Assembly (NCBI RefSeq): GCF_006345805.1
Contig: NC_043011.1
Coordinates: forward strand, 53,394,464-53,458,463
DNA from: Octopus sinensis
Taxonomy: Eukaryota
Length of the DNA: 64,000 nt
Direction: 5' to 3'
Below the pieces are notes generated by a model that worked only from the letters and a program-made list of their open reading frames with translations, ran no database searches and was not told where the DNA came from. Both the position numbers and the translations under genes were made by a program. Positions 3,791 through 56,510 of this stretch are shown piece after piece (within the stretch, counting starts at the first letter, position 1; every line of letters begins with the position of its first letter).

Positions 3791-4514
3791 TCATATATGC
3801 ATATATATATATATATATATATATAATATATATATATATATATATATATATATATAAGTATATATATATATATATATATATACATACATATATACATATA
3901 CATATACACATATATATATATATACATATACATATACATACACACACACACACACCACACACACACACAATATATATATATATATATATATATATATATA
4001 TATATATAATATATATCATATTTATGTAACTACACACATGCTGTTGGTGATTTGTTTCCTTCTTTGGACTTCTCTCCTTTAACTTTTTCCATTCCGATGA
4101 AGAGCTATGCTTGAAATGTCAAAAACCCTCTTGTTTCACAGAGTGCCAAGCTAATACATTCCATGTACACATCTTGTAATTTTGTTATTGTTATTTTTAA
4201 TGTTTGTTTATTTGATTTGACTACATATACATGTGTGTGTGTGTGTGTGTATATATATATATATATGTGTGTATTTATGTATGTTTGCATGTATGTATAT
4301 GCATACATAGTTGTGGCTGTTACCGGTTTCATGTAAATGTCACCTGTACCAGTGGCATGTAAAAAGCACCCATTACACTCTCAGAGTGGTTGGCATTAGG
4401 ATGGCCATCCAACCATGGAAACCATGCCAAATCAGACAGGAACCTGATGCAGCTCTCTTGCTTGCCAGCTCTGGTCAAACCATCCAACTCATACCATCAT
4501 GGAAGATGGACATT

Positions 4515-4695
4515 TATTTCTTTATTGACCACAGGGGGATAAAAATACAGGGGACAAACAAGGACAGACAAGGAGATTAAGTAGATTACATCGACCCCAG
4601 TGCGTAACTGGTACTTATTTAATCGACCCCGAAAGGATGAAAGGAAAAGTTGACCTCAGCAGAATTTGAACTCAGAATGTAACGGCAGACGATCA
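4515..4695 (-). mobile_element. 5'-truncated SINE C nested inside a family F repeat
   Basis: 12-bp TSD AAGATGGACATT at 4503-4514 and 4696-4707; family C body and tail. Confidence 0.85.
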
Positions 4696-4740
4696 AAGAT
4701 GGACATTAAAGGGTGATATCATGATCATGATGATATACAT

Positions 4741-5400
4741 GTGTGTGACTGTGTGGTAAGAAGCTTGCTTTCCCAACTACATGATTCTGGGTTCAGATCC
4801 ACTGCATGACACCTTGGGTAAGTGTCTTCTACTTTAACCTCTGGCCAACCAAAACTTTGTGAGTAGACTTAGTAGATAGAAACTGAAAGAAATTGAAGGC
4901 AGCGAGCTGGCAGAAACGTTAGCACGCCAGGTGAAATGCTTGGCGGTATTTCATCTGTCTTTACATTCTGAGTTCAAATTCTGCCAAGATCAACTTTGCC
5001 TTTCATCCTTCCGGGGTTGATAAATTAAGTACCAGTTACGCACTGGAGTCGATGTAATCCCTTTTTCTGTCCTTGTTTGTCCCCTCTATGTTTAGCCCCT
5101 TGTGGGCAATAAACAAATAAGAAAGAAGCCCATCATGTGTGGGTGTGCATGTGGGTGGGTGTGTGTGGGTGGGTTTGTGTGTCTTTGTGTCTGTATTTGT
5201 CTCCCCACCACTGCTTAACAATCGGTGTTGGTCTGTTTCCTTTCCCTAACTTAGCAGTTCAGCAAAAGAGACCGATAGAATAAGTACTAGGCTTTAAAAA
5301 ATAAGTCTTGTGGTCAATCTGTTTGACTAAAACCCTTCAAGACAGTGACCCAGCATGGCCACAGTGAAATGGAAAATGACTAAAACAATATAAATAGAAA
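4741..5400 (+). mobile_element. SINE family A copy interrupted by a full SINE C (about 4896-5121)
   Basis: Family A head stops at ACTGAAAGAA and resumes after the C copy with GAAAGAAGCCC. Confidence 0.8.
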
Positions 5401-5617
5401 AGTTAATAGAAGTAGCCATCTGTTACCATAAAGGAAAAATATAATTATCACTAAATGCAATTAAGGAAGACAAGACACCTACACTGCTAGAAATAAGAGC
5501 TCTAATGCTGTAGGTAAAGCATATAATTGTATACATATATGCTCACAGGGGCTGTTATTGCCCAGAAATGGGAATTCTTGAGTGGGTGTTTTTGGGTGAT
5601 TACAACCCCTGTGATCA

Positions 5618-5717
5618 NNNNNNNNNNNNNNNNNNNNNNNNNNNNNNNNNNNNNNNNNNNNNNNNNNNNNNNNNNNNNNNNNNNNNNNNNNNNNNNNNNN
5701 NNNNNNNNNNNNNNNNN
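5618..5717. other. Assembly gap (100 N)
   Basis: Run of N. The true gap size and the adjacency of the flanks are unknown. Confidence 1.
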
Positions 5718-53483: not shown

Positions 53484-54491
53484 GATACCTCTCATACTGT
53501 TAGTGTGAAAAATCACCATGAAGAAAACGGTTACAAGATATCTATAACTAGAGAAACATAACCAAGCAGAACATATAATGAAGAAGCAGCAAGAACCAAT
53601 CGACAAACATCGAAGATTTAAATTGTACACGAGACAACTACAGATTCAACTATAGCGGTTAGGTGAAATTCTCGCCACGAAGAAAACGGCTACAGAAACA
53701 TGTCTGGAAGTATATTCATATCAAGAGAAAGATAAACACAACGAGTGATTCAATTAATCTCAACTGCGACACGCAATACCTTGATATAGAACTCTTACAG
53801 TGTACCTCATAAACGGTAAATCAATTATCTGTTCTTGGGTTCTAGTTTCTTCTAAGAACTACCTTAAGCCATCTGTTATTACCTGTTGCCAAGCCGATAC
53901 CAACAACATTAACTGTGAATCAAATCCCATCGTCATTTTCACTGGTCAGTACCTTTTTACGCCTAACGAACACACAGACACAAAAACATGCGAACACTTA
54001 CAAACTTCCAACATCAAACATGATTGTAAAATATGTAAAATAAATAATGTATATATCTTAAAAAGAAATCTTGTTGTCATTCCAAACTTATGTGTATTGC
54101 CGCTGCATGTAAAATATAGTCAGTAAAATATATTATTAAGAATAGGACCACGTTTCTATTTTTATAATAGCATAATGCAAACGTGTAGCTTTTTTTGTGC
54201 ATTTTGTTTGCAGAAAATAAAGAAATAACAGTAATAATGTTTAATAAATGTTGCTTATTGCAAGTTATGGATGATACTTTTATGACTTCATTGCTTTCAG
54301 GCTTAGCTTAATGTATTTTCGCGCCCGACATCATAAAATGCGTTTGAATAAACATTACCGGACAGCAAATAAACACTCGGACATTGCTTAGAAAATAATT
54401 TTCATTTTTAACCTCGTATATAGTAAGCACTAGGGATTTTGACCTTTAAATTTTGGGAAAAAGTGCGGATTATACTCGAGGATTTACGATA

Positions 54492-55200
54492 CTAAAATTG
54501 GAGCGATACAGGGTAGAGATTACGGTACTCTTAGTGATATTATTGCAAGTAAGGTTTCGTAGGAAGGAAACTTATTGGTGTGTAATATTTTGGGTTGATG
54601 TATTTCCATTGAATGTTTTGACTAAAAGTTTTTCATCTTATATCATGGGAGCCTTCAAGTCTTTTTTTTTTGTGTCTTTTTTCTTCTCTTTTCAGCGCCT
54701 TTTGGTTACTTTTGTTGTTACGATCTCTTGCGACTGCTCTGATGCTGCGTTCATACTTTGAACAATATCATCCTTAGTGATTCCTTCGCTGCCTAAAAGC
54801 CTCCTTCGAATTATTCTGTTTCTCTTTACGGTTGTTGGTGCTGCATTGATTTCTGTTAATATTTTTTTCAACCAAGTTTTTGATAAAATAGTTTTTGGTT
54901 AGAATGGTTGTTTGCTTTGTTCAAAGAGTAGCTGTTAATTCCTTTTTTTTTTCTCTCTTTGTTTTCTGTTTTTTCTTTTTTGTTTTTTGTTTTTCATGCT
55001 TCTAGATCCTTTGTGATTTGGTGAGGATCTCTTATTTCAGGCGTTCTTCGATTCTTACTTCTTCTTTTACATTACATTACTCTGGTATTTTTCTCTCCTA
55101 GCTTTTTCCCAGTTGCATCGTTTCGTTCTTGATTATATTAAGGATTGAAAGATCTTTTCTTTTTTTCATGTATATTTGTTTTCCATGTCGCTTGCTTGAG
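54492..55200 (-). pseudogene. Highly decayed R4/Dong-like pre-RT region
   Basis: Broken translations EERLK*EILTKSQRI...SNQKLFY, KAP and PKYYTPISFLPT resemble the LKQ.I.AK.QR...NQK.FY, WKAPG and P.NYRPI.CLPT motifs. Confidence 0.45.
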
Positions 55201-55799
55201 CTTTGCTAAGCCTACTTGAACAGATCTGAAGAAGTACTCACTTTCCCTTAGAAATACAGTACTCACTTTCCTTCAGAAGTACAGTGGCTGCCGCATATAA
55301 TATTTCACTCAGCTTGGTGATATTGATGTTTGTGTCTGTTTTAATTAATTCTGTGATGGCCAGGTCTATATATTTTTATTGCCGCTGCTATTTTATCATT
55401 GAGGGTCGACAAGTACCAGTTGAACACCGGGATCAGTGTAAACGACTTACCCACTGTTATGTGTAGTTTGGGTTCTAATGGGATAGACAACCAAATGAAG
55501 ACCATTGTTATTGTTACGTGTTTATTTACTTTCCATGTAACACGGACTCGACATTCAGCGTAGTGATACATAATATACTTTACACACAGTTGTACTGTTC
55601 ACTAACAAAATAGTGCCAAGAGTGGGGATGTAGTTTGGCATACGTAAACACATAGATATGAATGTGTAACACCCACCTTCTGTAAAACTACTGGCGTTTT
55701 GTTAAAATTTGAAATCATCACCACCATCACCATCATCATCATCATCATCATCAACATCATCATTGTTATCCTCCTCCTCCTCCGCCTCTTCCTCATCTT

Positions 55800-56420
55800 T
55801 AAGGTTGCTAGCTGGCAGATTCGTTAACATGCCGAGCGAAATGCTTAGCGGTGTTTCGTCCGTCTTCACCGTTCTGAGTTCCATTTCCGCCGAGGATGAC
55901 TTTGCCTTTCATCCTTTCGGTGCCAATAAATTAAGGGCCAGTTGAACACTGGGTGGGTGGGGGGTGGGGTATCAATGTAATCGACTTAGCTCTTCCCCGA
56001 AATTATTGGCCTTGTGCCTAAATTTGAAACCATTTTTTATGATTATTATTGTTATTATTATTATTATTACTAAGGCAAAGGCGGTGAGTTGGCGGAGTCG
56101 TTAGCACGCTGGACGTAATGCTTAGCAGTATTTCACCCATCGCAACGTTCTAAGTTCAAATTCCGTCGAGGTCAAGGTCGATATTGTCTTTCATCTTTTC
56201 GGAGTCGATAAATTAAGCGTCGGTTGAACACAGGGGTCGATGTAATCGACTTATACCCTCCCTCAAAATTGCTACCCCTGTGGGAAAATTTGAAACCATT
56301 ATTATTAATAAGGCGGTAAGTTGGCAGAGTCGCTGGCACACCGGACAAAATGCTTAGCAGCATTTCGCCAGTCTTTAAGTTCTGAGTTCAAATTCTGCTC
56401 AAGTCGACTTTGCCTTTCGT
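55800..56420 (+). mobile_element. Three co-oriented SINE C copies
   Basis: Heads at about 55801, 56079 and 56309, each with CTGAGTTC/CTAAGTTC and the core. Confidence 0.8.
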
Positions 56421-56470
56421 ATGTAGATGTATCTGAGCAACGACCTTTTCCCAACTACCGCTTTTTCCAA

Positions 56471-56510
56471 ATGTCCTGAAGAAGGGGTCTGCACCCCGAA
56501 ATATAGAAAT
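56471..56510 (+). ncRNA. Candidate type I hammerhead ribozyme with canonical CUGAAGA core
   Basis: ATGTC-CTGAAGA-A-GGGGTctgcACCCC-GAAA-TATA-GAAAT; stem I 4/5 paired, palindromic stem III ATAT. Confidence 0.55.

What the first reader, a model, noticed from the sequence alone, without database searches (positions are those of the whole stretch)
4090..56510. Dispersed short elements carrying hammerhead-ribozyme-like cores with covarying stems
Seen: the architecture stemI-C(C/T)G(A/C)NGA-A-stemII-GAAA-short palindrome-stemI' occurs at 4090-4124(+), 6872-6906(+), 38558-38592(-), 39005-39039(-), 39525-39560(-) and 56471-56510(+). Stem II varies while staying paired (GAGCtccGCTC, GAGCgtagGCTC, GAGCtatGCTT, GGGGTctgcACCCC). 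Stem I covaries (GTTT/AAAC versus CTTT/AAAG). Established: minimal type I hammerheads with palindromic stem III occur in Penelope-like element pLTRs and retrozymes and can cleave as dimers. Inference: an abundant non-autonomous ribozyme-bearing retroelement family with non-canonical cores (U4C, A6C) that strict motif searches would miss.
Basis: partly seen in the sequence, partly recalled or inferred. Interest (0 to 1): 0.72.

Follow-up and report, generated by a model that had tools for sequence, protein, structure and literature searches.

The report
Penelope retrotransposon tails with variant hammerheads
The six motifs lie in the cut-off tail ends of three families of protein-coding Penelope-type jumping genes; two abundant families carry a changed letter in the core of their predicted self-cutting RNA in thousands of copies, which would likely slow cutting, while the rest of the fold stayed fixed, so they offer a natural test of whether these elements need to cut their RNA.

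Summary
All six motifs exist, but only 6872 and 39005 are intact minimal hammerheads. They are not a non-autonomous family. They are 5'-truncated 3' ends (pLTR stubs) of three endonuclease-bearing Penelope-like element (PLE) families. Family A (4 copies): a 949-aa RT + GIY-YIG ORF lies between two ribozyme-bearing pLTRs; window copy 38558 is 93% identical to its last 456 nt; most copies carry U4C. Family B (39525): sister family, 16,030 matches, core CUGUNGA. Family C (56471) is old, with a canonical core. Covariation is thin: one stem I G-C/C-G swap; stem II is identical in A and B. Better evidence of selection: along B's lineage N7 changed 5 times and H17 6 times, while 27 of 29 other sites, U6 included, never did. 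Minimal PLE hammerheads are published (PMC4209133); U4C and A6C are known as rare natural variants; family-wide A6U was not found in my searches, but Lünse 2017 could not be read. Cleavage is untested. This scan noted the same thing before, in this genome and others. Verdict: new variant of a known kind, interest 0.4.

The parts
4026..4222 (+). Old, decayed 3' stub of PLE family A between microsatellites; motif 4090-4124, core CCGATGA, stem I damaged; limits approximate
   Evidence: 66% to family A copies L091 and L070; sequence context
6851..7011 (+). 3' stub of PLE family A followed by (TA)n; intact minimal hammerhead 6872-6906 with U4C core, predicted cut after GUU at 6902
   Evidence: 96.9% over 161 nt to the 3' end of EN-bearing copy L082; descriptor
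18436..18510 (+).
   Evidence: tail HMM E 1.8e-11
38469..38910 (-). About 440-nt 3' stub of the family A subfamily that has an open ORF; motif 38558-38592 damaged in stem III; joined directly to the 3' end of the 39005 copy
   Evidence: 93.4% over 456 columns to the 3' end of L071
38911..39100 (-). 3' stub of family A; intact minimal hammerhead 39005-39039 with U4C core, predicted cut after GUU at 39009
   Evidence: 96.9% over 192 nt to L111; 92% to L082
39432..39689 (-). Older 3' stub of family B; motif 39525-39560; family core CUGUNGA, here with copy-level changes U6 to C and ACGT to ACAT
   Evidence: 85% to L126; sits inside the B clade, 100/100
56431..56600 (+). 3' stub of a third, older PLE family (C); motif 56471-56510 with canonical CUGAAGA core, stem II GGGGT/ACCCC, palindrome ATAT, G-A mismatch in stem I
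   Evidence: relatives at 83-91% among the best places; GIY-YIG endonuclease remnant just upstream on the same strand in L189, L196, L182

Best explanation
The six motifs are hammerhead-shaped segments in the truncated 3' ends of three protein-coding Penelope-like retrotransposon families, likely left by reverse transcription that stopped early, and in the parent elements they are predicted to work as slow, dimer-dependent self-cleaving ribozymes. Shown: the parent elements are RT + zinc-finger linker + GIY-YIG units with the motif about 100 nt before their 3' end, repeated upstream as a pLTR; copies end in (TA)n and have scattered 5' ends; young family A copies carry C4 and family B carries U6. 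Inferred: the endonuclease nicks (TA)n, the RT starts about 100 nt past the cut site and usually stops early, which gives the stubs. Inferred: a pLTR-ORF-pLTR transcript holds two motifs that pair through the ACGU palindrome to build stem III and cut after GUH. Inferred: because copies run across the cut site, the template was uncut (or re-ligated) there, so slow cleavage is tolerated or favoured, which lets U4C and A6U fix while the rest of the fold stays under selection. The window copies themselves are most likely passive debris.
For: 25 of 40 family A endonuclease loci have the motif on the sense strand 1.4-4.2 kb downstream, against 2 of 40 antisense; 4 have it on both sides; L071 has a 949-aa ORF between two identical motifs. 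20 of 20 family B loci have it 0.7-0.9 kb downstream, 0 antisense, 5 on both sides. Motifs GLRF, DKG, YIDD, CX4CX2C, IYC..YxGQT, RFxEH are present; 827 relatives at E<=1e-30. 183 of 200 copies end in (TA)n against 22% of random stretches. A and B are 42% identical at 282 fourfold sites but identical at 20 of 23 non-loop sites from C3 to U16.1 (binomial P about 1e-5). On a tree built from flanks only, B shows 5 internal changes at N7, 6 at position 17 (A in 17, U in 14, C in 1, G in 0 of 32 unselected copies) and none at 27 of 29 other sites; flank columns average 1.5. The architecture matches the published min-HHR point for point (PMC4209133). In an anole PLE, catalytic mutants did not reduce insertion and uncut RNA was the main template (PMC11167929).
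Against: No cleavage was measured and no RNA ends could be seen. U4C and A6C lower activity in vitro (PMC3088659). Family A looks eroded: the young open-ORF subfamily also has a U-U mismatch in stem I, and its hammerhead fold scores -0.5 against -9.4 kcal/mol for the best fold; 4 of 100 sampled genome copies have G17, three sharing flank letters. In A and B the lowest-energy fold pairs the core with the palindrome in a long hairpin. Only one compensatory pair was found. The flank tree inflates flank changes by construction, flanks are low-complexity, and 58 of 210 copies were picked by ribozyme patterns; positions 4, 6, 7 and 17 were free in the B pattern. Pfam matches of the ORF are below cut-off (RVT_1 E 0.0018, GIY-YIG E 0.018). 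The family C link rests on degraded fragments (E about 1e-4).
Confidence: 0.6

Rival explanations
1. Same elements, but the C4 and U6 motifs no longer cut; the fold is kept because the element's protein binds it or it serves RNA packaging or priming.
For: Core changes at positions known to lower activity; stem I mismatch in the young A subfamily and G17 copies; alternative long hairpin is the best fold; cleavage dispensable in vitro in another PLE; Naiad PLEs spread without canonical hammerheads.
Against: The pattern of free and fixed sites in B follows catalytic rules: N7 takes all four letters (U 50, A 24, C 15, G 11 of 100), position 17 avoids G, while C3, G5, G8, G12-A15.1 and U16.1 show no internal change. 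N7 changes would break the alternative hairpin.
Confidence: 0.25
2. The U6 core of family B is a fully active natural variant, with U6 itself selected and activity supplied by the dimer context, a tertiary contact or the element's protein.
For: U6 in about 96% of 16,030 matches (563 have CUG plus another letter); no internal change at position 6 in 54 rows; B has a 5-bp stem I and the most stable hammerhead fold (-7.7 kcal/mol); B is very young (many endonuclease copies at 100% identity).
Against: Zero changes at one site in a lineage where 37 of 114 flank columns also have none is weak proof that U is preferred; A6 changes disrupt core hydrogen bonds; no compensating change was found.
Confidence: 0.1
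3. A separate non-autonomous, retrozyme-like family that borrows a PLE enzyme.
For: Most copies are short and non-coding; no ORF fragment of these families lies beside the window copies.
Against: The stubs are 93-97% identical to the 3' ends of ORF-bearing elements; 5' ends are scattered; no tandem array of a ribozyme-bearing unit among the 150 of 187 TRF rows shown, and the three clustered copies belong to different subfamilies.
Confidence: 0.05

Closest known systems
Minimal type I hammerheads (min-HHR) in pLTRs of metazoan PLEs (Cervera and De la Pena 2014, PMC4209133; seen: parts 1-2 of 4 of the text, supplement parts 1-2 of 3)
   Same: Extra nucleotide between 9 and 10.1, G10.1-C11.1, palindromic 15.2-16.2, short stem I, thousands of dispersed single copies from truncated PLEs, a few in both pLTRs. 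The Acropora Neptune motif listed there is close to family A.
   Different: All representatives that I read in Fig. S3 have U4 and A6 (only U3-A8 is noted as a core change); no cephalopod is listed. Families A and B have C4 and U6.
EN+ PLEs with CX2-5CxxC linker (Neptune or Nematis; Craig et al. 2021, PMC8557442; seen: passages, supplement search)
   Same: One ORF with RT, zinc-finger linker and C-terminal GIY-YIG; partial tandems forming pLTRs; hammerhead near the 3' end; (TA)n targets.
   Different: Unusually long CA-rich 3' region (about 1.4-4 kb in A, 0.9 kb in B); Neptune versus Nematis not resolved here.
Natural hammerhead core variants U4C (viroid) and A6C (phage Bcep176) (Perreault et al. 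2011, PMC3088659; seen: section 8, passages)
   Same: Same positions; reduced but non-zero activity reported.
   Different: Those are rare cases in ribozymes with a real stem III; here the change is fixed in thousands of copies of active retroelements, and the letter at 6 is U.
Small dimer-cleaving PLE hammerhead variants (Lünse, Weinberg and Breaker, RNA Biol 14:1499; seen: title in reference lists and a review passage; paper not held)
   Same: PLE-linked, short palindromic stem III, dimer cleavage.
   Different: Could not check whether U4C or A6U families are described there.
Animal non-LTR retrozymes (bioRxiv 10.64898/2026.07.22.740005, seen: part 1 of 5; PMC7761336, seen: passages)
   Same: Type I hammerhead, non-coding copies, PLE connection.
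   Different: Retrozymes are tandem arrays of a fixed non-coding unit; these are dispersed, variably truncated ends of coding elements.

Membership tests
EN+ Penelope-like element | Single ORF with RT followed by C-terminal GIY-YIG endonuclease | tested here: met
   L071, 949 aa; motifs DKG, YIDD, IYC..YVGQT; Pfam RVT_1 and GIY-YIG in that order, below cut-off; B ORF 68% identical over 716 columns; C only as endonuclease fragments
EN+ Penelope-like element | Partial tandem forming pLTRs with the hammerhead on both sides of the ORF | tested here: met
   4 of 40 A loci and 5 of 20 B loci; not seen for C
EN+ Penelope-like element | 5'-truncated copies with a shared 3' end | tested here: met
   201 of 224 alignments end 90-108 nt past the cut site (references end at about 108); 5' ends scattered
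Neptune/Nematis type | CX2-5CxxC linker before the endonuclease, and CCHH motif | tested here: met
   CSRSRCNTC (A), CSRPRCRTC (B); CxxC, EH and HF residues present; features as in PMC8557442
Neptune/Nematis type | Insertion bias for (TA)n | tested here: met
   183 of 200 copies against 22% background
Neptune versus Nematis | Placement in an RT tree with named references | not tested
   no named reference proteins at hand; relatives carry no clade names
min-HHR of PLEs | Extra base 9/10.1, G10.1-C11.1, palindromic 15.2-16.2, NUH | tested here: met
   met in the family majorities of A and B and in window copies 6872, 39005, 56471; palindrome broken in 38558 and 39525
min-HHR of PLEs | Core consensus CUGANGA | tested here: not met
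   B: U6 in 99 of 100 sampled. A: C4 in 71 of 100 sampled; 2,553 of 10,181 have CUGACGA. Met by family C and the U4 subfamilies of A
Hammerhead ribozyme | Self-cleavage at NUH | not testable with these tools
   needs an assay or raw RNA reads
Hammerhead ribozyme | Covariation of stems | tested here: inconclusive
   1 of 8 pairs changed on both sides, one event; 95.8% of cells paired against 15-48% when slid
Non-LTR retrozyme | Tandem array of a non-coding unit with a hammerhead in each unit, no own ORF | tested here: not met
   dispersed copies that continue into an ORF

The most novel reading that the evidence does not exclude
Family B has spread through more than 16,000 copies and many successive master elements with U at the nearly invariant core position A6, while obeying every other catalytic rule of the hammerhead; it is a working ribozyme tuned down, or rescued by its own protein or dimer, so that enough transcript stays uncut to be reverse-transcribed. 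With C4 fixed in its sister family, this would show PLEs repeatedly selecting slow cores.
Probability: 0.3. Interest if true: 0.65.

Novelty: new variant of a known kind. Interest (0 to 1): 0.4.

Why it matters
The role of PLE hammerheads in vivo is called a mystery in a 2020 review (PMC7761336) and cleavage was dispensable in the one in vitro system (PMC11167929). Here two young sister families with long open ORFs carry different single core changes, and family A keeps a canonical U4 subfamily as a built-in control, so one set of cleavage and insertion assays could show whether slow cutting is selected. It also shows that CUGANGA descriptors and Rfam miss over 20,000 motifs in this one genome. 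The window copies themselves are ordinary transposon debris.

Tried and rejected
Rfam: the whole-window scan was swamped by microsatellite-miRNA matches (150 of 254 rows shown, none a hammerhead); the focused scan gave 3 chance hits. My first descriptor found nothing because it lacked the extra A. Pfam found nothing on four broken ORF pieces; PDB sequence search found nothing. CpG decay as the source of the U4 copies was rejected: C4-to-T 29 of 100 against G5-to-A 4 of 100, and U4 copies group by their flanks (100/94); the direction U4 to C4 is inferred, the root being unresolved. A fourth PLE family met in L023 is not the parent: 20 loci showed no shared motif of these types downstream. A tight pattern for family C found 2 copies; a DNA search found its relatives. 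RNA: no RNA holder listed; four runs laid were contigs, which cannot show ends or strand; no evidence either way. No pile-up of 5' ends at the predicted cut site: 1 of 11 copies that start at or past it (small sample, most copies span the site by the way they were chosen). The 4090 fold was one base out of register and was redone. Window row 38554 was misregistered in the tree and left out. Lünse et al. and the Terminon paper are not held. Literature searches for 'hammerhead U4C' (1 paper), 'hammerhead A6U' (1 listed, on twister ribozymes, not read) and 'hammerhead octopus Penelope' found no report of these families; an octopus repeat annotation has no mention of ribozymes (PMC13282606, passages). 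One supplementary file of PMC4209133 could not be searched, and bioRxiv supplements are closed.
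Full report
Observation. Each reads stem I, seven core letters, one extra A, stem II starting G and ending C, GAA, a four-letter would-be palindrome, one letter, stem I'. A descriptor with stem and NUH rules accepts three (6872, 39005, 39525) against 0.1 in shuffles. With the palindrome also required, 6872 and 39005 are intact; 38558 and 39525 have broken palindromes, 4090 has lost stem I pairs, and 56471 has a G-A mismatch in stem I. 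The window is microsatellite-rich animal DNA from a 2.72-Gb genome, probably an octopus (my guess from recalled repeat style and size; not tested).

Abundance and limits. A 26-nt pattern from 6872 has 8,638 exact matches and its control none. Copies share a 3' end about 100 nt past the predicted cut site, followed by (TA)n in 183 of 200 cases against 22% of random stretches. Their 5' ends are scattered, from about 40 nt to 2.6 kb upstream of the motif. That is the pattern of 5' truncation, not of a fixed short element.

Parent of family A. One long copy (L050) runs upstream through a CA-rich region into RT and GIY-YIG frames. That endonuclease has 12,499 candidates in the genome. Of 40 loci fetched (the 20 listed next after the query, and 20 chosen mostly for long frames), 25 have the motif on the sense strand 1.4-4.2 kb downstream and 2 on the antisense strand; all 25 have C4; four have it on both sides. 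L071 is pLTR, a 949-aa ORF, about 3 kb of CA-rich 3' region, pLTR, (TA)n. The protein has GLRF, DKG, YIDD, a CX4CX2C linker and GIY-YIG/CCHH residues, the features given for Neptune and Nematis PLEs, and 827 relatives at E<=1e-30 among 7,988 scored. Window copy 38558 matches the last 456 nt of L071 at 93.4%, and 6872 matches L082 at 96.9%. Copy 4090 is a distant member at about 66%.

Parent of family B. The 39525 type has 16,030 matches. Three of five long copies reach a related ORF. All 20 loci fetched for long frames have the motif 0.7-0.9 kb past the endonuclease, none antisense, five on both sides. Many endonuclease copies are 100% identical, so B is young. A and B share 68% of residues, 42% of fourfold sites and a short tail motif.

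Family C. The 56471 copy has relatives at 83-91%, often as inverted pairs. Three of 20 loci show the end of a GIY-YIG frame shortly upstream on the same strand (E about 1e-4 for L189 and L196, L182 by translation). Its core is canonical.

Core variants. In A, 71 of the first 100 matches have C4 and 29 U4; 2,553 of 10,181 read CUGACGA. U4 is not CpG decay, since the mirror change at G5 occurs in 4 of 100, and U4 copies cluster by flanks. One of the 25 B motifs shows the same change.

Selection. Classical covariation is thin: stem II is the same in A and B, and stem I has one G-C/C-G swap. Two other tests are stronger. A and B agree at 20 of 23 non-loop sites from C3 to U16.1 where fourfold sites agree at 42% (P about 1e-5); the three differences are 4, 6 and 7. 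On trees from flanks alone, B (54 rows) shows 5 internal changes at N7 and 6 at position 17, none at 27 of the 29 other sites; A (83 rows) has none at 24 of 29; flank columns average 1.5 and 1.9. In 32 B copies not chosen by a ribozyme pattern, U6 stands in 31 and position 17 is never G. Caveats: the tree inflates flank changes, flanks are low in complexity, and part of the sample was pattern-chosen.

Signs of erosion. The young A subfamily with the open ORF has a U-U mismatch in stem I and a marginal hammerhead fold. Four of 100 sampled genome copies have G17. In both families the best computed fold pairs the core with the palindrome.

Mechanism. Shown: element layout, shared 3' end, (TA)n targets, fixed variant cores, constraint on the fold. 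From the literature: min-HHRs cut weakly and only as dimers (PMC4209133); U4C and A6C reduce activity (PMC3088659); an anole PLE inserts equally well with a dead hammerhead and uses uncut RNA (PMC11167929). Inferred: target-primed copying from about 100 nt past the cut site, usually aborted, made the stubs; two motifs in a pLTR-to-pLTR transcript pair through ACGU and cut slowly; since 213 of 224 copies span the cut site (a biased sample, but full-length copies do too), templates were uncut there, so slow cores cost little or help. I put identity as PLE tails at about 0.95, slow but real cleavage at about 0.6, a dead fold kept for binding at 0.25, full activity at 0.1.

Comparison and novelty. 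The system is known: the architecture matches the 2014 min-HHR definition, whose Fig. S3 representatives, as far as read, all keep U4 and A6. It passes the PLE tests and fails the retrozyme tests. Family-wide U4C and A6U in PLEs did not turn up in my searches, but the most relevant paper (Lünse et al.) was not held. Earlier notes of this scan report the same variants in this genome and in others, including shark-like genomes; these are unchecked and were read after my analysis. Verdict: new variant of a known kind, interest 0.4.

Noticed in passing
window 38114-38361 and 40161-40408: A 248-nt inverted repeat at 98.8% identity brackets the cluster of three PLE stubs and a SINE-like insert; the arm has no other match in the window or in about 1.3 Mb of fetched loci. 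It may be an inverted duplication of host DNA.
   Followed up: partly
window 38469-39689 (-): Three stubs from three subfamilies lie head to tail within 1.2 kb; 38558 starts directly at the 3' end of 39005, which suggests insertion into an earlier copy's end. A read-through RNA would hold three motifs, two of them damaged.
   Followed up: partly
about 20-35 nt 3' of stem I in all A and B copies, e.g. window 6931-6955: A tail motif TTCCTGAGCG..TAATAC is shared by A and B despite saturated fourfold sites. GAGCG can pair with the 3' side of stem II (seen in one fold), so it could be a switch or a protein-binding signal.
   Followed up: partly
L051 (4.2 kb before the endonuclease end), L161 (2.8 kb after it), G000:C1:3797467-3797503: Further hammerhead types occur in this genome: a canonical core with a long stem II, a U3-A8 swapped core, and a C4 core with a different stem II.
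   Followed up: no
L023:1684-3843 and L158-L177: Another abundant PLE family with a cysteine linker (11,247 endonuclease candidates) showed no shared hammerhead downstream with my descriptor.
   Followed up: partly
L178-L197: Family C stubs often stand as adjacent inverted pairs (16 second hits beside the 40 best places), while A and B stubs in the loci fetched rarely do.
   Followed up: no
L019, L024, L025, L030: A family A stub follows the 3' end of an L1/Tx1-type LINE with an open frame of over 900 aa in several near-identical loci.
   Followed up: no
window 274-497, 2696-2830, 35253-35479, 39138-39385 and others: A SINE-like dispersed repeat has at least 8 copies in the window; a second type forms a 184-nt tandem at 26688-27051.
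   Followed up: no
window 46259-47146: Minisatellite with a 22-nt unit and a 133-nt higher-order period at 98%.
   Followed up: no
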